64,000 nt of DNA from Octopus vulgaris (Eukaryota). Position numbers and translations under genes: made by a program. The notes beneath the pieces are model-generated. The model ran no database searches, was not told the origin of the DNA, and saw only the letters and a list, made by a program, of their open reading frames with translations. The stretch covers positions 3,782,001 through 3,846,000 of the forward strand of contig OX597829.1 in NCBI GenBank assembly GCA_951406725.2, read 5' to 3'. Below, one piece after another: positions 1,616 through 29,850 of this stretch. Each line of letters begins with the position of its first letter. Positions within the stretch are counted from its first letter, which is position 1.

Positions 1616-4473
1616 TTAGCGTCCGTTTTCCATGCTAGCATGGGTTGGACGGTTCTGCTGGGGTCTGTGAAGCCAGAAGGCTTCATCAGGCCCAGTCAAA
1701 TCTGGCAGTGTTTCTACGGCTGGATGCCCTTCCTAACGCCAACCACTCCGTGAGTGTAGTGGGTGCTTTTTACGTGCCACCCGCACTGGTGCCAGCCAGA
1801 GCTGGCAAACGGCCACGAACGGATGGTGTTTTTTTATGTGCCACCGGCACGAGGGCCAGGCGAGGCTGGCAACGAACACGAAACGGGGCGGTGCTGGCAA
1901 CGGTCGCGAAACGGAAGGTTCTCTTACATGCCACCGGCACTGGTAACACATCTGCAATTTCCATTGATCGATTTCCATTGATCGATTTCGATTCTGATCC
2001 TCACTTGCCTCAATGGGTCTTCACAAGCAGAGTTTCGACATGCCACCGGCACTGGTAGCACATCCGCAATTTCCATTGATCGATTTCGATTCTGATCCTC
2101 ACTTGCCTCAACACGTCTTCACAAGTAGAGTTTTGTGTCCCAAGAAGGGAAGGTATGCATACGTAGGCTGGCTCCATCCCATGTAGAAGGCCACGGGTTG
2201 TGGACTCACTTGTCCTGCCGGGTCTTCTCGCGCACAGCACACTTCCAGAGGTCTCGGTCTCTAGTCATTTCCTCGGTGAGACCTAAAGTTCGAAGGTCGT
2301 GCTTCACCACCTCGTCCCAGGTTTTCCTGGGTCTGCCTCTTCCACAGGTTCCCTCAACCGCTAGGGTGTGGCACTTTTTCACACAACTATCTTCATCCAT
2401 TCTCGCCACATGACCATACCAGCGCAAACGTCTCTCTTGCACACCACAACTGATGCTTCTTAGGTCCAGCTTTTCTCTCAAGGTACTTACACTCTGCCGA
2501 GTGTGAGTACTGGCATTACACATCCATCGGAGCATACTGGCTTCATTTCTAGCGAGCTTACGCATATCCTCAGCAGTCACGGCCCATGTTTCACTGCCAT
2601 GTAGCATGGCTGTTCGTACACACGCATCATACAGTCTGCCTTTCACTCTGTGCGAGAGGCCTTTTGTCACCAGCAGAGGTAAGAGCTCTCTGAACTTTGC
2701 CCAAGCTATTCTTACTCTAGCAGTTACACTTTCAGCACACCCGCCCCCGCTGCTGACTTGGTCACCTAGGTAACGGAAACTATCAACTATTTCTAGTTTT
2801 TCTCCCTGGAAAGTGACAGAAGTTGGTCTCAGAGCATTTTCAGTGTTTATTGTTCCTGAGCATCTGCCACATACAAAAACCATCTTCCTAGTTAGCCTTC
2901 CTTTGACATTGCTGCATCTCTTATGTGTCCATAGCTTACACTTGGTGCATCTTATAGAGTTTCTACCTACACCTTTTCTACAGATCGAGCAGGGCCATCT
3001 ACCTGAAGGTGTTTGTGATTTGTCTACCTTCCTACTGATTACGACTTTGGTTTTAGCTAGATTGACTCTGAGGCCCTTCGATTCTAATCCTTGTTTCCAC
3101 ACCTGAAACTTCTCCTCCAGTTCTGATAGCGACTCAGCAATTAGAGCAAGGTCATCAGCATAGAGGAGCTCCCAAGGGCATCCTGTCTTGAATTCCTCCG
3201 TTATTGCCTGGAGGACTATGATAAATAGGAGGGGCTGAGTACTGAGCCTTGGTGGACCCCTACCTCTACCCGGAATTCTTCACTGTACTCATTTCCAACC
3301 CTCACCCTACTAGCGGCGTCCCTATACATGGCCCGCACAGCTCTCACTAACCATTCATCTATCCCTAGTTTTCTCATTGCCCACCAGATAAGGGATCGGG
3401 GGACCCTGTCGAAGGCTTTCTCCATGTCAACAAAAGCCAGGTACAGGGGCTTATCTTTGGCTAGGTATTTCTCCTGCAGCTGCCTTACCAGGAATATAGC
3501 ATCAGTAGTACTTTTCCCTGGCACAAACCCAAACTGCATCTCATCTAAACTAACTCTCTCTCTAATTAGTTGGGCTATGACCCTCTCCGTAACCTTCATC
3601 ACCTGGTCCAACAGCTTGATACCTCTGTAGTTGTTTGTATCTAGGGCATCACCTTTACCTTTGTAGCAGTTGACTATTATACTGCTATTATTCACTAGGT
3701 TAATTCTATTCATAAAAATATGAATTAGGAGTATTTCTTAAACCGTTAGTTTCCCATTTCAACAGCTTAACTGAAACTTAGCACACTTAATAGGAACTGA
3801 AAGGGACATCGTGGAACATAGAAACTGTGGGTGATACAGATAATTTGACGTTATTTTTGAATTCTGCATGCAAAAACATTATAAGATAAAGGTATTCTTT
3901 TTCCTTGGGACAAATTCTTTGTTGACCAGTGTTACTTTTTATCGTAGTTTACAAATCCAAGCATGAAAACGTTACTCAACTTTGTAGTTTGGGAGAGAAA
4001 TGTCCACTTTTCACACATAGACACACACACACATGCACTTATATATTAATGATGTACATAAATACATGGCAGGTATACATAATACTAATATACGCATTAA
4101 GTAAACACATACAGACAAATATATTAATACAACAAATTTTTTTTAAATGATAAAAATATACAATCAATGAAAAAGTAAGATGACACATGTTGATTTTATT
4201 ACGTATTTCTGTTTATTTAGAAACCTACAATGAAGAGGTCAGATGCTAAACTATAAATTTCACAGGTTACAACCTTAAAATTGACACCGCTCCGTTAAAC
4301 GCAGAAAATTTCTGTCTTGCTATTGGCTAAAAATACCCAGTTTTTTCGATTTTTAAAACCTCTGTAACATTTTTCTCTCCACAACACCATACCTACCTTA
4401 TTATAACCGATTTTCAGATTTTTTACTTCCTTTTAAAAAATGCATATTTTGCGAATGGAAAAAAACTAGATCC
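1225..4473. mobile_element. Non-autonomous TIR DNA element with GGATCTAGT termini, containing a nested RTE LINE
   Basis: Left end GGATCTAGTCTTTCTCATTTGCAGAAT; right end (reverse complement) GGATCTAGTTTTTTTCCATTCGCAAAAT; degenerate 8-bp TSD GATCGTGC/TAGCGTGC; interrupts a repeat unit exactly. Confidence 0.6.
1586..3690 (-). mobile_element. 5'-truncated RTE-clade LINE: RT with embedded PHD finger, 3'UTR and (GAT)n tail
   Basis: ORFs 3216-3713 and 2206-3102 carry NYRGIKLL, QFGFVPG, FVDMEKAFD, GVHQGSVLSP, LLYADD (about 3151-3168), FRYLG, RLRWYGHV and RGRPRKTW; one frameshift near 3232; (CAT)n tract on + at 1586-1614. Confidence 0.93.
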
Positions 4474-9400: not shown

Positions 9401-12400
9401 GTTGTTGGCATCCTTTTCGTCTCGGGAGACAATGGAGTTGCGCATAAAATAATCTAGTCCGGCTTTTACATTTTATGTCCTAATACATCTCCTGCAGTGG
9501 CTGTGTAGTCCTATCCTGGACAAACACTCCCTCTGGCAGGTGCCACAAATGTAGCGAAGACTTTTCCTGGCTGGTTGTAATGCCATAGTTTCTTGTTGAC
9601 GTCTTTTCCTCTCTTTCCATTTCTCCTCTCTCTCTCTCTCTCTCTCTCTCACTCACCCCTTTGTGTTCCCTCTTTTACGGTACGTCACCAATCTCCACGG
9701 TTGCTGGCAACTGCTTCCCAGTTGCTAATATTGATGTTGCAGGCCTTCATGTCCCTTTTGCAAACATCCTTGTATCGTAAGAACGGTCTTCCCACAGACC
9801 TAGTGCCCCTAGCAAGCTCTCCGTAGAGTATGTCCTTGGAGATTCTGCCATCTTCCATACGGCTAAGAGTCCAAGCCATCTCATACGTCTTTGTGTGAGG
9901 AGTGCAAACATGCTTGGTATTCCTGCTTGCTTAAGGACATCTTTGTTGGGGATATGATTCTGCCATTTGATGCGGAGGATTTTCCGGAGGCAACGCAGGT
10001 GAAAGATGTTTAGCCGACGCTCTTGGCATGTGTATAGCGTCCAAGTCTCACTTTCATACAGTAGAGTGCTAAGTACACATGCCTGGTAGATCTTCATTTT
10101 CGTGGTCTTGGTCAGCTTATTGTTGTCCCATGCCCGTTTGGAGAGTTGGGCCATTGCAGCAGCTGCCTTGCCAATGCGTATATTGAGCTCAGCGTCAACG
10201 GATAGGTTGTAGGTGACGGTAGAGCCAAGATAGGTAAACTTCTCCACCTCTTGTAATCTGTGGTCTCCAATATGTATGTTCGGGATGTCCGATGTAGCCT
10301 GACCCATGATGTTGGTCTTCTTAAGGCTGATAGCTAAGCCAAAGTCATTACTTGCTTGCTCAAAACAGTTAATGAGCCTTTGGAGGGCTTCTTCTGTGTG
10401 TGATACCAGAGCGGCATCATCAGCAAATAGCATCTCCTTGATCAGGACGTTTCTGATTTTGGTCTTGGCACACAGGCGCGAGAGATTGAACAGTTTCCCG
10501 TCACTTCTACTGTTCAGAAACACTCCATCATCTGATGTCTGAAAGGCATGTGAGAGTAAGAGCGAGAAGAAGGTCTTTCCAACAGTGCTTAGAAGAGATA
10601 TTCCACGGTAATTGTTACAATCACCACGGTCACCTTTCTTTTTGTAAAGCGTAATGATGTTAGCATCCCGCATATCCTGAGGGACTGTACCCTCTTCCCA
10701 GCACTGACACAGAAGCTCATGAAGGTGCCGCAGCAAGATGGTGTTTTTGCCGGCTTTGATGATCTCTGAAGGGATGCCGTCTTTTCCCGGAGCCTTGTTT
10801 CTTGCTAGGGAGTCAATAGCCTTGGTGAGCTCTGCTATAGATGGCGGACTGTCACGTTCGCACATGACTGGCAAGATCTTGACACTCTCGACTGCAGCCT
10901 CAACCACTGTAGTCTCCCGTGAGTAGAGATCCTGGTAGTGCCCCACCCATCTATCCATTTGCTTGCTTTGATCCCTGATGAGATCTCCAGTAGTTGATTT
11001 CAGAGGGGCTGACTTGGTTGCGGATGGACCGAGGGCCTTCGTCAAACCAGCATACATCCCACGGGTGTCGCCCCCGTCAGCAGCTGACTGGATACTCTGA
11101 TAGATTTCCTGCCAATACCTATTTGCACCGCGTCTGGCAGTCAGTTGGGTTTTATTTCTTGCCTTTCTGAGTTCTTCGAGTGACTTTATAGAAGAATCAC
11201 TCTTGTATTGCATCAGAGCTGCACGCTTTGCTTCGATAACTGGCTCCAGCTCTGAGAGCCCAGCATTGAACCAATCTGGGTTTTGCCTTTCTCTCATGCC
11301 GAAAGTATCTATTGAAACTGGAGAGGACACTTCAGTGCTGCTGTAAAAAGCTGCAGAAACAACACTGGAGGTAACAGTCACGAGTGATAAGTCCATTCAG
11401 ATTGGCGTAAAATATGGGCGCTACGGGTTACCTCTGACGGTGGGAGGGGCCTCCGTGTCCTATTGGTTAGCTACTGCCCACCTCAAGCTGGGCAGCCTCC
11501 AGTTAATAAGGTGCTGACCCGCCACAGGCCGCCTGCTTCATTGGGTGCTTGGAGCTAAGAGTATGACTTGAAAAGCGACCTGCAACCTCTGCACCAGGCA
11601 AACAACTAAAAGACAAGAAACTACCAGTCCTGCGGTTGGCAAGCTGGAATGTCAGGACCATGTGCCCTGGAATATCTGATGATCTACCCAGGGTTGAAGA
11701 CACAAGGAAAACGGCCATCATTGACCGTGAACTAAAGAGGCTTAACATAGACATTGCTGGGCTGCAGGAGACAAGACTTCCCTCAAACGGCAAACTCAAA
11801 GAACAGGATTTCACCTTCTTTTGGCAGGGAAGCGATCCAGAAGAACCTCGTCAGCATGGTGTTGGCTTTGCAGTGAGAAACTCATTACTCTCCTCAATAG
11901 AATCACCATCAGGAGCCACTGAGCGTATCATCTCACTGCACCTCTCGACTTCTTCTGGCTCAGTACATCTACTCAGCATCTATGCTCCCACTCTCTACAG
12001 CTCAGAGGAGACCAAGGACTAGTTCTACAAAGATCTCAACTGTGTCATAAAAAATATACCAACAACTGAAAATATCTACCTTCTAGGGGATTTTAACGCT
12101 CACGTGGGATCTGACCATGATTCGTGGCCCATTTGTGTTGGACACTTTGGTGTTGGCCACATGAACGACAATGGTTAGAGACTACTTGAATTTTGCACAT
12201 ACCATAACCTGTGCTTCACCAACACATTCTTTGCCAACAAGCCATCCCACAAGGCATCTCGGAGACATCCAAGATCTCACCACTGGCATCAGCTGGATCT
12301 CATCATTACACGGAGATCCTTCTGAATTCTATTCTATTGACCCGCAGTTACCACAGCGTGGATTGTGACACAGACCACTCACTAATAAGAAGTAGAGTGA

Positions 12401-18986: not shown

Positions 18987-20262
18987 GAGGGGCGTTCAAT
19001 AAGTAATGCCCCTGACCCACTTCCCATAGCAGTTGAGCAACGAAACTTGGCACAGTTATTAGTCTTTTTCTACATAGGAACCACCCAGAGTTACGCATTT
19101 CTCCCATCGTTTGATGCGGCTCTGGAGACCGTTTTTGTAGAAGAACCCAGCTTGGTCCTCCAACCTCAACGTGACTTCAGAAATCAAGGCTGCATCATCT
19201 GGGAAACGCTTTCCTTTCAAAAACAACTTCATGATTGGGAAGAGGTGAAAATCAGAGGGTGCAAGGTCAGGAAAGTAGGGGGGATGGGGAGGAGTTCATA
19301 GCCATACGCCTGTGCTTCTGATCTGGCGACAAGCGAGTTGTGGACCGGAGCGTTGTCCTGCAGGAGGAGGATGCCTTCGCTGATATTGCCCCGCCTCTTG
19401 ATTTTGATAACTTCTCTTAATTTCCTCAAAAGTGAAGCAATTGTGGTACCCTTTGCCAGGAAATCTGTCATCACTACTCCGTCCTGGTCCCAGAAGACTG
19501 TGAGCATGACCTTGCCAGCGGAGGGCTGCACCCTTGCCTTCTTTGGAGGGGGTGAGTCACGGTGCTTCCACTGCATTGACTGGGCTTTGGTCTCTGGATC
19601 ATCGTGATGGACCCAGGTTTCATCCTGTGTAATCAGTCTTTTGAAAAATTTTGACTCATCTTCTTGGCACATCTCCCAAATTCACCCTCGAGCACTCGAC
19701 GCGTTCTTGCTTCTGGAAAGGCGCGAGCAACCTGGGAATCCATCTGGCAGACACCTTTTGCATATGCAAATGGTCATGAATGATAGTTTCCATAGACCCA
19801 GTACTAATCTTGACCTCATGGGCTATTTGGCGAATAATTATGCGTCGATCTTCCAAAATGGCAGCCTCAACTTGACGGACAGATGCCTCATCAATGGCAG
19901 AAGGGGGCGACCAGATCTGGGAGCTGTTTCCACAGAGTTCCGACCATGTTTGAATTCACGATGCCAGCGTTTTACAAGGTCATATGATGGAGCATCATCA
20001 CCATAAGTTACTTTCATTTCATCAAAAGTCTCTCGTGGTGTGCGTCCTTTCAAATACAAAAACCGGATCACTGCTCGACACTCAACAGGCTCCATTTCAC
20101 ACTTGACTCGGTTCAAACACCTGTAAATCAGAAACCACAATTAATTCAGAGCTGTAATTTGCCACTTACTCTATAGAGATATAAATGATTGCACATGCAA
20201 AATTTCAGCTAGATCAAACAACTGCAAGTGGGTCAGAGGCATTACTTATTGAACGTCCCTCG
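18986..20262 (-). mobile_element. Full-length (1277 bp) mariner transposon with frameshifted transposase
   Basis: TIRs CGAGGG(G/A)CGTTCAATAAGTAATGCC at both ends; TA on the right flank; ORFs 19838-20140, 19656-19856 and 19229-19672 carry the HTH region, WIPRLL, ITQDETWVHH, KVMLTVFWD and LLQDNAPVH. Confidence 0.95.
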
Positions 20263-26335: not shown

Positions 26336-26779
26336 TACATATTTAAAATACGAAATTATATTTAAAGCAAACCAAACGTAAACTAACGGAACAGTAAATC
26401 ACTTTAACCTTAAAATAATACAACATAGAAATATATATATATATATTTCCATGTATTCATTTTTTTTTTTATCTGCAATACCGGATGAACCCACATCGCG
26501 GTAGGAGGCACAAAGACGAGCGGCAACGTCTAACTCGCTACTTCACCAGAAGCAATCCTGGAAAAATCGCAGTAGAGGCGGTGCACCAGCATGGCCACAG
26601 CCTGTGGCTGAAACCCATAAATGAATAAAAGAAAAGATTATATATACGTATATATATTATATATTATATATATATATATAACTTCAAAAATACTTTTGTT
26701 TTAAAAATCCCAAATTAGCAAGAGTACAGATACTTCTCTTTCTATTTTGATAAATAAAATACATTTTTTTGTTTCTTTT

Positions 26780-27448
26780 CTACATAACTGTACAAGACTC
26801 TTTATTTTTATCATCGCAAAATTCTTCTTCGTTTAAAATTGCTGTAATTAATTTGACCAAACATCGATTGGGTTTGTCATAGCAAGCCAATTCGATTTCG
26901 CGGAGTTTCTTATGAAAACTATCCCTCTCTCTACACGTCAGTTCAAAATATTCTGATAAAGTTTTATTACTCTGCTGATAAGTTTTAATGTTAGACAATA
27001 AATTTTCTTTAACTTCTCTTAGATCGCCGATATGTTCTTTCAGTTCTTTAACTTCTGTTTCTAATTCTTTTAATTTGCTTTTAAAAGCATGATATTCATC
27101 ATCAGTTTGAGTGTAATTAGCATTTTTTTGCGGTGGAAGTTCTCTAAAACTTATCGATTCTCTACAATTTGCATGTTTGCGAAAGTACTTTTTCTTTGGA
27201 ATTATAAGTATAGTCTTGCTCTTCCTGTTTTCGTTGTCTTGATCTTCTGCAGACTTCGTGAGTCTTCTTGGTGTTTCAAACTGCTGTTTGCTTAAACTTT
27301 CCGATTTTTTTAGTTCAGATTCTCTTGTCAACGTGGTCGCATTCCTGTTCACCTCCGTTACACTTTTAGATAAAAGTAATTCCTTTTTCTCCATCTCTTC
27401 GATGTTTTCATCGGAACCATTTACATTTGTATTTGCATGTGCTAGCAT
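26780..27448 (-). CDS. Intronless 222-aa protein: low-complexity N-terminus, coiled coil and EB1-like (EBH) C-terminal domain; no CH domain
   Basis: Non-repetitive 669-nt ORF in very AT-rich DNA; ERDSFHKKLREIELAC...LITAILNEEEF resembles the EB1/MAPRE signature ERDFYFGKLRNIELIC...IVDILYATDEGF; heptads LKELETEVKELKEHIGDL precede it. Confidence 0.7.
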   Translation of the reverse strand: MLAHANTNVNGSDENIEEMEKKELLLSKSVTEVNRNATTLTRESELKKSESLSKQQFETPRRLTKSAEDQDNENRKSKTILIIPKKKYFRKHANCRESISFRELPPQKNANYTQTDDEYHAFKSKLKELETEVKELKEHIGDLREVKENLLSNIKTYQQSNKTLSEYFELTCRERDSFHKKLREIELACYDKPNRCLVKLITAILNEEEFCDDKNKESCTVM

Positions 27449-27589
27449 TTGATCGATGTTGTTAGTTGTTTAATGGCTTAGATATATTTCGAAAAGCGTC
27501 GGCTTTTGGAACTTTTCCCTCTGATAAATAAGCCGTTTAAATAAAAGTTTTGTTACACTCTCATTTTACCTGGTAAATATTCTAATCTA

Positions 27590-27597
27590 TGACGTCA
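27590..27597. promoter_or_regulatory. CRE palindrome TGACGTCA about 140 bp upstream of the EBH-like ORF
   Basis: Perfect 8-bp CREB/CREM/ATF consensus; its position in the proximal promoter is inferred. Confidence 0.4.
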
Positions 27598-27728
27598 TTG
27601 TTCTTTATAGCGTTCCAAGTCTTGATTTTTCTCTATCATTTCTGAGTACAGTTAAGAGTGAAAATTTGAATTTTGGTCCTTCCCTCTCTCTTTCTCTTAA
27701 TTTGAAACCATTATTATTATTATTATTA

Positions 27729-27948
27729 AGGCGGCGAGCTGACAGAATCATTAGCACACCGGATAAAATGCTTAGCAGCACTTCGTCCGTCTTCACGTTC
27801 TGAGTTCAAATTCCGCCGAGATCGACTTTGCCTTTCATCCTTTCGGGCTCGATGAAATAAGTACCAGTCATCACTGAGGTCGATGAAATTGACTAGCACT
27901 CTTCCCCCAAAGTTTCAGGTCTTGTGCCTATAGTAGAAGGAATTATTC
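27729..27948 (+). mobile_element. SINE family B, directly after an (ATT)n tail
   Basis: AAGGCGGCGAGCTGACAGAATCATTAGC head plus the family B core. Confidence 0.8.
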
Positions 27949-28129: not shown

Positions 28130-29850
28130 CATCCATAAACAGTAAGTGTTTAATTGGTCTCGTGTTCTTCAGCAGTTTGCAACCAGCTCCCTTTTCCCTT
28201 AGAACCGTGGAGAATGGCAACATACTAACAATAAACAGAAGAAGTCTTTTTTGAAAGAACCTCACCTTGATGTCGGCTTGCCCAATTTCCCTTACATCTT
28301 CTGTCAAAACTGTTTTCCAGTTCCTCATACTGATTTCTGAATAAATATTTTTAGCTGTCTCGACCATCTCCAGACATTTTAGAGTAAGGAACCATACCAT
28401 ATGCCTTCTTATAGTCAATCCAAGCCAATGATAAACTTGTCGACCTTTTCTGACAGTTTCTCAAAATTGTCTCGTCTTTCAGCAACTGATCCTTCGGCCC
28501 TCTTAATCCCAACCTGAAGCTTTTCTGTTTATCTGCTATGAGTTCATTTCTTTCAAGGTGTTCGTACAATATTTTCCCCATTATCCCATTTAGAAGCTTC
28601 CACGTCATAGATAAACAAGTAATCGGACGATTGTTACTTGTTCCAGCACCCTTGGCTTGGTCCTTCTCTATCAACATAATTCTTGTACAATTCTTTGGCG
28701 CACACGGCCTTGCGTTTTTGTAGCCTGAGATGTAAATTCATCAAACCTTTGAACCAAAAACCTTGAACTAGATACGGGCCTGTTGTTTTCCAATTTCTCA
28801 TCTTACCGATTCCTGCTTGTATATCTTCCAACGTGACGGTGATCTTCTCCTGTATCTCCATGTCAACAAATTATTCTTCCACTTCATAAAGCCAGGTTGC
28901 CTTGTGGTTGTCTTTGACATTTTCTGGCCAGATCTTGCTCCAAAACGAAGGCAACTCTGCTTCTTTCTTATCTCCTCCAACCAGAATCTCATTCAACAGC
29001 TTCTGATTTTGCTTAAACTGTAAATTTTCCTCGTTTCTTTTGGTCTTAATTCTTCTCTCTTTGATCTTCTGTTTTAACGTATCCGATATAATCATAATGT
29101 CCTTAATCCACCAGGTGTTATTTCTTATTCATGTCATTCTGATCTCTTTCATTGAGCTTCATATTAACCAGTCCTTACTTCCTTGATTTTATTTAAACCC
29201 TTCCGCCATCTATCGACGCTTTCTTTTATTGTCCAGATTGGTTCTTGATTTCTTTGTTCTTTCCTTTCTCTAAACATTTCCATGTTCTCAGTAATGACAT
29301 AAGCAATGGCGTACATTAAAGAATTTGAATCAGGGATATCCTTAATTAGAATTCTCATGACAACTTCATTATCTTTCTTGAGTTTTGATCCTAGCTTTGT
29401 TATATCGCATGACTTCATTGATAGTAACCTTTTCTTTTCCTCAACGAGCATCACTTCCGCAATTCTGTCGCCGAGTGTAGCTAGTTCTGGGCTAATTTCT
29501 TTCGGCGACTCTCCAGTATGAAGTACACTTAGGTCTTCTATAGACGGTACATTTCCCCATTCCATGTCGAAGCTCTGTAGATTCTTACGTTCAACGGGTA
29601 TTTCTTTTGGACCAGAAGTTTCCTGCAGTTTCTTTCGCACTGCCAGTGTAATCACCTCTTGTTCAATCTTTACTATCCACTTTGTTTTTTTTAATTATCA
29701 TTTGTCTAATCTGATCAGCCATTTTTTTTTCTCTTATATCCTTCATCTCATCGTGTTGATAATATATTTTCCAGACCTCCAGTAACTTTTTTTCTGTAGC
29801 CCCGCTTCCCTGGCTCGCTCCTGATATAACATTCAAGCAACAATGTTTTT
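28130..29850 (-). mobile_element. Decayed R4/Dong-clade non-LTR retrotransposon (N-terminus and RT)
   Basis: Fragments ECYIRSEPGKRGYRKK, NWKTTGPYLVQGFWFK, NRPITCLSMTWKLL, KDQLL, AWIDYKKAY, HLLFMD; many stops and frameshifts. Confidence 0.8.

What the first reader, a model, noticed from the sequence alone, without database searches (positions are those of the whole stretch)
26780..27448. Intronless EB1-like gene with the dimerisation/cargo domain but no microtubule-binding CH domain
The C-terminal ~85 aa form a coiled coil plus an EBH-like motif (ERDSFHKKLREIELAC, ITAILNEEEF). An in-frame TAA lies 8 codons upstream of the ATG with no AG acceptor in between, so no CH domain is encoded contiguously. 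EBH domains mediate EB dimerisation and SxIP-partner binding, and isolated EB C-termini act as dominant negatives (established). Inference: a lineage-specific retrogene acting as a +TIP decoy or adaptor, possibly in the germline.
Basis: partly seen in the sequence, partly recalled or inferred. Interest (0 to 1): 0.7.

Follow-up and report, generated by a model that had tools for sequence, protein, structure and literature searches.

The report
Headless EB1 with an LC8 clamp
An octopus genome carries a single-exon offshoot of the microtubule-tip protein EB1 that lacks the microtubule-binding domain and has a worn cargo pocket; it is predicted to bind the dimer-clamping protein LC8, so it likely serves as a structural coiled-coil linker, possibly in developing sperm, rather than as a decoy.

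Summary
Observation confirmed, on the minus strand. A 222-codon frame (27448-26780) ends in a coiled coil plus a degenerate EB-homology (EBH) domain. No CH-coding sequence lies in 204 kb around it, and one RNA-like contig runs unspliced across the ATG and the upstream TAA. The decoy reading is weak: only 5 of 11 SxIP-pocket residues are kept (canonical octopus EB1: 11 of 11), and there is no terminal EEY/F. The gene is the CH-less member of a set of at least 12 single-frame EB1-derived genes in this genome; I found no paper on them. It aligns without gaps to the tail of a CH-bearing paralogue. Five of the 12 share a [TSV]QT[DE] LC8-type motif before the coiled coil. A model docks this motif in octopus LC8 (0.79, best control 0.01), possibly from memory of solved complexes. 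Ten of 12 have a CRE-type motif upstream, against 0 of 30 protocadherins. Best reading: an LC8-clamped coiled-coil adaptor, probably germline. No orthologue was found, so a decaying copy remains possible.

The parts
26780..27448 (-). Single-exon ORF, 222 aa (P0001), EB1-derived, no CH domain
   Evidence: the exact protein is already in public collections as a cluster of one
27590..27597 (.). Perfect CRE palindrome TGACGTCA, 149 nt upstream of the ATG; the only one in the 64-kb window; likely promoter element
27470..27472 (-). In-frame TAA 8 codons upstream of the ATG, inside the stretch covered by the RNA-like contig (5' UTR)
26893..27522 (-). Stretch covered by one 630-nt contig of RNA-guessed run X1: no joint, no loose end, one other letter (27210, would change residue 80)
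27290..27415 (-). Predicted N-terminal helix (residues 12-53, medium confidence); no homologue found
27113..27289 (-). Predicted disordered, basic linker (residues 54-112; pI 10.0 for 58-105)
27101..27127 (-). LC8-type TQT motif (residues 108-116, KNANYTQTD) directly before the coiled coil
26933..27103 (-). Lengthened coiled coil (residues 116-172), gapless against paralogue P0002
26825..26932 (-). Degenerate EBH helix-hairpin (residues 173-208); KLR..E core kept, SxIP pocket 5 of 11
27739..27870 (.). High-copy SINE-like repeat upstream of the CRE (not part of the gene)
   Evidence: hundreds of contigs of 83-97% likeness pile here
26470..26625 (+). Dispersed repeat downstream of the stop (not part of the gene)
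   Evidence: 40 of 40 scored candidates (527 seen) match, the 39 other than itself at 83-88%

Best explanation
This is a single-exon, EB1-derived gene that lacks the CH domain and likely makes a parallel coiled-coil dimer, predicted to be clamped by LC8 at a TQT motif, which would act as a structural linker, probably in the male germline, rather than track microtubule tips or catch SxIP cargo. Shown: the open frame, the missing CH, the degenerate pocket, the motif shared by paralogues, the CRE, and the family of intronless copies. Inferred history: EB1 was retrocopied; the copy gained a longer coiled coil and a QT[DE] motif; it multiplied; this descendant lost the CH-coding 5' part and starts at a new ATG. 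Inferred working: the coiled coil and EBH bundle dimerise, alone or with a CH-bearing paralogue such as P0002; an LC8 dimer binds both TQT strands; the N-terminal helix and basic linker present a new binding surface. The functional model is the C-terminal half of Drosophila Mst27D, which dimerises and binds a new partner in spermatids.
For: Frame and selection: 229 open codons (chance 4e-9); against P0002 over 96 codons, dN 0.69 versus dS about 1.9 (near saturation, so rough), third positions the most changed; no gap from QTD to the end of EBH. Family: 11 further single-frame EB-type CH ORFs among the 18 matches, whereas canonical EB1 splits its CH over three exons. Motif: [TSV]QT[DE] once each in 5 of 12 genes, always before the coiled coil, expected 0.02 per 400 aa; kept in the Argonauta and O. 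bimaculoides orthologues of P0002; absent from the canonical linker and EBH exons. It sits at the end of predicted disorder, just before the helix, as in OFD1 (bioRxiv 10.1101/2023.09.15.557927, passages). Complex model with octopus LC8: 0.79, best of 3 controls 0.01, contacts at residues 106-115; runs agree in 98% of contacts, partner pLDDT at least 77. The mark was reached by 51 of 78 solved and 2 of 108 mismatched microbial pairs, and by 39 of 65 solved and 2 of 126 unrelated eukaryote pairs. CRE: TGACGT within 600 nt upstream in 10 of 12 genes (8 of 10 without the two where I first saw it), the full palindrome in 4 of 12, 0 of 1000 shuffles reached either; background 21 of 106 and 27 of 233 tiles, 0 of 30 protocadherin upstreams. 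Precedent: testis-specific, retroposed EB1-family genes in Drosophila (PMC10359004, abstract and passages); octopus spermatids have a manchette-like microtubule array (PMC3004946, abstract).
Against: No orthologue in any protein search: only itself at 122-389 aa, none at 390-2000 aa, 3 hits among 1.84 billion of which two are repeat proteins, and only P0002-type proteins with the two-row profile. P0002 does have annotated orthologues. The RNA status of X1 is the tool's guess, depth is low (6.4) and the tissue is unknown. LC8-TQT complexes are widely solved, so the model may pass from memory, and peptides and disordered chains were outside its calibration. The five motif copies are inherited, not independent, and the pattern was defined after seeing two of them. 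CREs also occur in somatic CREB targets (PMC3091680, passages), so 'testis' is an inference by analogy. Twenty of the 30 control genes come from one near-identical cluster (0 of 10 without them), and their promoters may lie further upstream. The EBH tree has no supported branch, and EBH identity to P0002 (15 of 43), L013 (14 of 43) and canonical EB1 (16 of 42) is about equal, so the parent rests on the coiled-coil collinearity alone. The only polymorphism seen is non-synonymous.
Confidence: 0.45

Rival explanations
1. A dying copy: a once-functional CH-bearing paralogue lost its 5' end; the remaining frame is transcribed from a leftover promoter and has no selected function now.
For: No annotated orthologue anywhere; low depth in a single study; the family holds other fragments and stop-containing copies (L015, L019); the dN/dS signal against P0002 could predate the loss; the first ATG has C at -3.
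Against: No CH remnant in any frame of 204 kb and the 110-residue N-terminus resembles no paralogue's linker (p 0.52 against P0002; lowest 0.02 of 14 tests). The loss therefore looks old, yet 229 codons are still open. CRE and TQT motif are intact.
Confidence: 0.25
2. One reading: a natural dominant-negative that soaks up SxIP cargo or pairs with canonical EB1 to damp plus-end tracking.
For: The KLR..E core and L246 are kept. The CH-less half of Mst27D appeared weakly on moving comets in cells, which the authors ascribe, as speculation, to heterodimers with EB proteins (PMC10359004, passage).
Against: 6 of 11 pocket residues changed, including F216S, F218H, Y247N and A248E; no terminal EEY/F; the coiled coil is about 35 residues longer than canonical EB1's; Mst27D did not co-precipitate Eb1.
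Confidence: 0.12
3. The basic disordered linker has replaced the CH domain as a microtubule-lattice binder or nuclear signal, making an LC8-clamped bundler.
For: Residues 58-105 have pI 10.0 with a KKKYFRK cluster and are predicted disordered.
Against: Net charge of residues 1-110 is only mildly basic (22 K+R, 17 D+E); no family or atlas match supports it.
Confidence: 0.12
4. The frame is the last exon of a longer gene whose CH exons lie further away.
For: Octopus introns can be long (own knowledge); contigs cannot exclude rare isoforms; 100 bases of the flanking DNA read N.
Against: No CH in 136 kb upstream; the nearest CH matches on this contig are about 39 Mb away; the contig crosses the ATG and TAA without a joint; a CRE sits right upstream.
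Confidence: 0.05

Closest known systems
EB1/MAPRE end-binding proteins (Pfam PF03271 EB1 + CH domain); canonical octopus EB1 at G000:C9
   Same: Coiled coil followed by an EBH helix-hairpin with the ERD..KLR.IE..C core.
   Different: No CH domain, no introns, longer coiled coil, TQT motif, SxIP pocket 5 of 11, no terminal EEY/F.
Octopus 'RP/EB family member 1-like' XP_029636942.1 / XP_014785849.1 (P0002, P0004) and the Argonauta orthologue (P0007)
   Same: Intronless; QTD motif, coiled coil and EBH align without gaps over 96 aa; CRE-type motif upstream.
   Different: They keep a CH domain and are conserved across octopods (69-94%); this gene lacks CH, is 32% identical in the shared part and has no orthologue on record.
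Drosophila testis EB1-family genes Mst27D, CG15306, CG32371, CG2955 (PMC10359004)
   Same: Lineage-specific, diverged EB1 offshoots, Mst27D by retroposition; the C-terminal coiled coil was repurposed for dimerisation and a new partner.
   Different: Mst27D keeps the CH domain and has little similarity outside it, the reverse of this gene; no LC8 link appeared in the passages read; testis expression is shown there and only inferred here.
LC8/DYNLL clients with a TQT motif beside a coiled coil (e.g. OFD1; bioRxiv 10.1101/2023.09.15.557927)
   Same: TQT core in predicted disorder next to a coiled coil; model docks in the LC8 groove.
   Different: Binding not measured; none of the 3 papers listed names an EB-family protein as an LC8 client in its title or abstract start (listing only).

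Membership tests
EB1/MAPRE +TIP family | N-terminal calponin-homology domain | tested here: not met
   No hit in the protein or in six frames of 204 kb; positive control finds 3 of 3 canonical CH exons.
EB1/MAPRE +TIP family | Coiled coil plus EBH domain (homology) | tested here: met
   Pfam EB1 E=0.0014 but 19.3 bits, under the cut-off of 27; 20 of 20 weak PDB matches carry EB sequence; E=1e-9 to a paralogue over the cut-off.
EB1/MAPRE +TIP family | EBH fold by structure search | tested here: inconclusive
   Helix-hairpin model, pLDDT 86.8; Foldseek no match; VIA lists Bim1 EBH at rank 36 (Z 5.4, rmsd 2.1, 67 aligned) among generic helices.
EB1/MAPRE +TIP family | SxIP-binding pocket residues | tested here: not met
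   5 of 11 kept against 11 of 11 in canonical octopus EB1 (list from PMC5686072). Sequence only, binding not measured.
EB1/MAPRE +TIP family | C-terminal EEY/F motif | tested here: not met
   EEEF is followed by 12 more residues; motif described in PMC10359004.
EB1/MAPRE +TIP family | Dimerisation and plus-end tracking | not testable with these tools
Retrogene of EB1 | Lacks the parent's introns | tested here: met
   Canonical EB1 has an intron between the linker exon and the EBH exon; here the part is one frame.
Retrogene of EB1 | Direct copy of the parent mRNA (parent identity, poly(A) tail, target-site duplication) | tested here: inconclusive
   Shares derived features with intronless P0002; tree unresolved; no AATAAA/ATTAAA in 382 nt downstream; target-site duplications not searched.
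LC8/DYNLL client | TQT-type motif in a disordered region beside a dimerising coiled coil | tested here: met
   model 0.79 against best control 0.01, possibly from memory.
LC8/DYNLL client | Measured binding | not testable with these tools
   Needs ITC or pull-down.
Testis EB1-like proteins (Mst27D type) | Testis-restricted expression | not testable with these tools
   Tissue of run X1 is not given; CRE enrichment is indirect.

The most novel reading that the evidence does not exclude
Octopuses took EB1 apart into a germline toolkit of a dozen intronless genes under a shared CRE-type promoter: CH-only, tandem-CH, CH plus very long coiled coil, and this CH-less unit. A newly gained LC8 clamp lets headless and headed subunits assemble combinatorially into linkers that shape the sperm manchette and nucleus, convergent with the Drosophila Mst27D system.
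Probability: 0.2. Interest if true: 0.72.

Novelty: new variant of a known kind. Interest (0 to 1): 0.5.

Why it matters
EB proteins are usually one to a few conserved genes with a fixed CH-coil-EBH layout (own knowledge). If this holds, octopus shows a second, independent expansion of EB1 offshoots beside Drosophila's, with domain loss in both directions and a gained LC8 site that none of my searches showed for EB proteins. It gives testable candidates for how cephalopod spermatids link microtubules to the nucleus, and a natural CH-less EB tail whose cargo pocket decayed while its dimer core was kept.

Tried and rejected
No RNA holder is listed on record; X1-X12 are guesses. Runs X4, X8 and X9 laid only on repeats at or upstream of 27650, not on the frame; their small shares probably come from the dispersed repeat at 26470-26625. 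The X1 contig does not cover 26700-26892 (about the last 37 codons) or the unique DNA at 27523-27680; a part without cover proves nothing, so I cannot say that the transcript includes the second EBH helix. The contig's low end falls at a TCGA site, but further TCGA sites lie inside it, so a restriction-digest library is unlikely. The idea that the N-terminus is a decayed CH (KKELL resembles KKELM of P0002) was rejected: profile score -1.3 bits (that profile held 2 non-CH rows of 17 and was rebuilt without them for the genomic scan). No SxIP motif in the protein. No second DNA copy, no other convincing CH-less EBH gene (three weak hits, E 0.03-0.6, all with stops), no source for the N-terminus. 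ESM Atlas gave unnamed clusters and TM below 0.5. Foldseek gave nothing and VIA only generic helices. The EBH tree had 0 of 5 supported branches. L022 and L023 were not evaluated as promoter controls because my filter printed only L021. Literature: no relevant paper on an octopus EB1 expansion or a natural CH-less EB (open-licence library only; listings seen). Earlier scan notes: none bore on this.

Full report
Observation. The frame is on the minus strand, 27448-26780, and encodes 222 aa; the plus strand is closed. The in-frame TAA 8 codons upstream and the absence of AG between it and the ATG are as described. A frame this long has a chance of about 4e-9 at this composition. The C-terminal part is EB-derived. 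Pfam EB1 scores 19.3 bits, E=0.0014, under the curated cut-off. The last 50 residues match only EB-bearing chains in the PDB, 20 of 20, each weakly. The best match in the genome is an intronless EB1-like gene on contig C5 (P0002), identical to Octopus sinensis XP_029636942.1, so the genome is an octopus.

No CH domain. A profile built from 15 octopus EB-type CH domains finds all three CH exons of the canonical, intron-containing EB1 on C9, and nothing in 204 kb around this gene. A genome-wide search with P0002 puts the nearest CH matches on this contig about 39 Mb away. In run X1, guessed to be RNA, one 630-nt contig covers 26893-27522 with one other letter, no joint and no loose end, so it crosses the ATG and the TAA unspliced. 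This supports, without proving, a CH-less transcript; tissue is unknown.

The family. Searching the genome with P0002 gave 18 matches. Reading them out shows 11 single-frame genes with EB-type CH domains, plus fragments, one canonical exon and this gene. Layouts vary from CH-only to tandem CH to CH with a very long coiled coil. This gene is the only CH-less member I found. It aligns to P0002 without a gap for 96 residues, from a QTD motif through a coiled coil of about 57 residues to the end of the EBH. Canonical octopus EB1 has a short coil and no such motif. P0002 has orthologues in O. bimaculoides and Argonauta. Divergence from P0002 is deep (dN 0.69, dS about 1.9). A tree of the EBH alone is unresolved, so descent from the P0002 lineage rests on the collinearity. 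The first 110 residues match nothing in the genome or the family.

Cargo pocket. PMC5686072 (passages) lists the residues that hold SxIP peptides. Mapped through the canonical octopus exon, that gene keeps 11 of 11, P0002 keeps 6 and this gene 5 (K220, L221, R222, E225, L246); F216, Y217, F218, Q229, Y247 and A248 read S, F, H, Y, N and E. The EEEF is internal. What is kept is largely the helical core, so dimerisation is more likely retained than cargo binding (inference).

LC8 motif. [TSV]QT[DE] occurs once each in 5 of the 12 genes, always before the coiled coil, against 0.02 expected per 400 residues. The copies share ancestry and the pattern was defined after seeing two of them, but they survive where overall identity is about 30%. 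AlphaFold2 on the single sequence gives a helix at 12-53, disorder at 54-115, a long helix at 116-191 and a hairpin at 193-205 (mean pLDDT 64.8), placing TQT at the end of the disorder. That is the setting of known LC8 sites, 49 of 91 of which have a TQT core (bioRxiv 10.1101/2023.09.15.557927, passages). Two copies of residues 98-150 folded with two copies of the genome's own LC8 scored 0.79, best of 3 controls 0.01, with contacts at 106-115 in the LC8 groove; runs agreed in 98% of contacts, partner pLDDT at least 77. The mark was reached by 51 of 78 solved and 2 of 108 mismatched microbial pairs, 39 of 65 and 2 of 126 in eukaryotes; peptides were not calibrated, and like complexes are solved, so this shows compatibility, not binding.

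Promoter. The only TGACGTCA in the 64-kb window lies 149 nt upstream of the ATG, about 70 nt beyond the contig's 5' end. Among 600-nt upstream regions of the 12 genes (first Met of each frame taken as start), TGACGT occurs in 10 and the full palindrome in 4; none of 1000 dinucleotide shuffles reached either count, and TGACGT ranked first among hexamers (p 5e-6 uncorrected, about 0.01 after correction). Background tiles: 21 of 106 and 27 of 233 for the hexamer, 1 of 106 and 2 of 233 for the palindrome. Protocadherin upstream regions: 0 of 30, or 0 of 10 without the near-identical cluster. CRE is bound by CREB in somatic cells and by CREM in mouse spermatids (PMC3091680, passages). It marks a likely live promoter; the testis reading is by analogy.

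Against. No orthologue turned up in four protein searches, and the protein's cluster has one member. Close relatives seem to hold the DNA (shares 0.52-0.80), but I could not read their frames. A dying copy therefore keeps about a quarter of the odds.

Mechanism and comparison. Most likely a coiled-coil dimer with a vestigial EBH cap, clamped by LC8, working as a structural linker alone or paired with CH-bearing paralogues (0.45). Drosophila offers the precedent: several testis-specific EB1-family genes, of which the retroposed Mst27D dimerises through its C-terminal coil, binds Nup358 there, and links nuclear pores to microtubule bundles during sperm nuclear elongation (PMC10359004, abstract and passages). 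Octopus spermatids have manchette-like microtubules (PMC3004946, abstract). The gene works, if at all, like the C-terminal half of such a protein. It is EB1-derived but fails three defining tests of the EB +TIP family (CH, pocket, EEY/F), so it should not be filed as an EB1.

Novelty and verdict. Searches of the open-licence library found no account of an octopus EB1 expansion, a natural CH-less EB, or an EB-family LC8 client (listings only, subscription papers not covered; no supplements read). Some paralogues are annotated as EB1-like in public records. Verdict: real feature, new variant of a known kind, interest 0.5; the family is at least as interesting as this one member.

Noticed in passing
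L007, L008, L009, L010, L012, L013, L014, L017, L018, L020, L002 (contigs C2, C3, C5, C13, C16, C19): Eleven single-frame EB1-type CH genes with varied layouts: CH only (L014, L018), tandem CH (L009, L017), CH plus about 500-residue coiled coil (L008), CH-coil-EBH (L002, L010, L013), CH plus unrelated tail (L007, L020) or short coil (L012). Counts are lower bounds (40 candidates scored). Deserves its own study.
   Followed up: partly
L009:1444-2799: Tandem-CH protein that still ends in a QTD motif and an EBH-like hairpin: two microtubule-binding heads per chain, the mirror image of the CH-less gene.
   Followed up: partly
L015, L019 and G000:C19:6252231-6252368: Short CH fragments beside family members (L015 has a stop inside the match), suggesting local DNA duplication and decay.
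   Followed up: no
P0008 (public annotation) versus L002:1480-2421: A public 299-aa model of the P0002 gene has a different N- and C-terminus although the genome holds one clean 313-aa frame; probably a mis-spliced annotation.
   Followed up: no
window 2209-3279, 9750-12019, 28354-28737, 19232-19681: Broken LINE reverse-transcriptase and endonuclease remnants, and a mariner-type transposase fragment; no other host gene was evident among long frames in the window.
   Followed up: partly
L022, L023: Two further dynein-light-chain-like matches besides canonical LC8; possible alternative partners for the QT motif.
   Followed up: no
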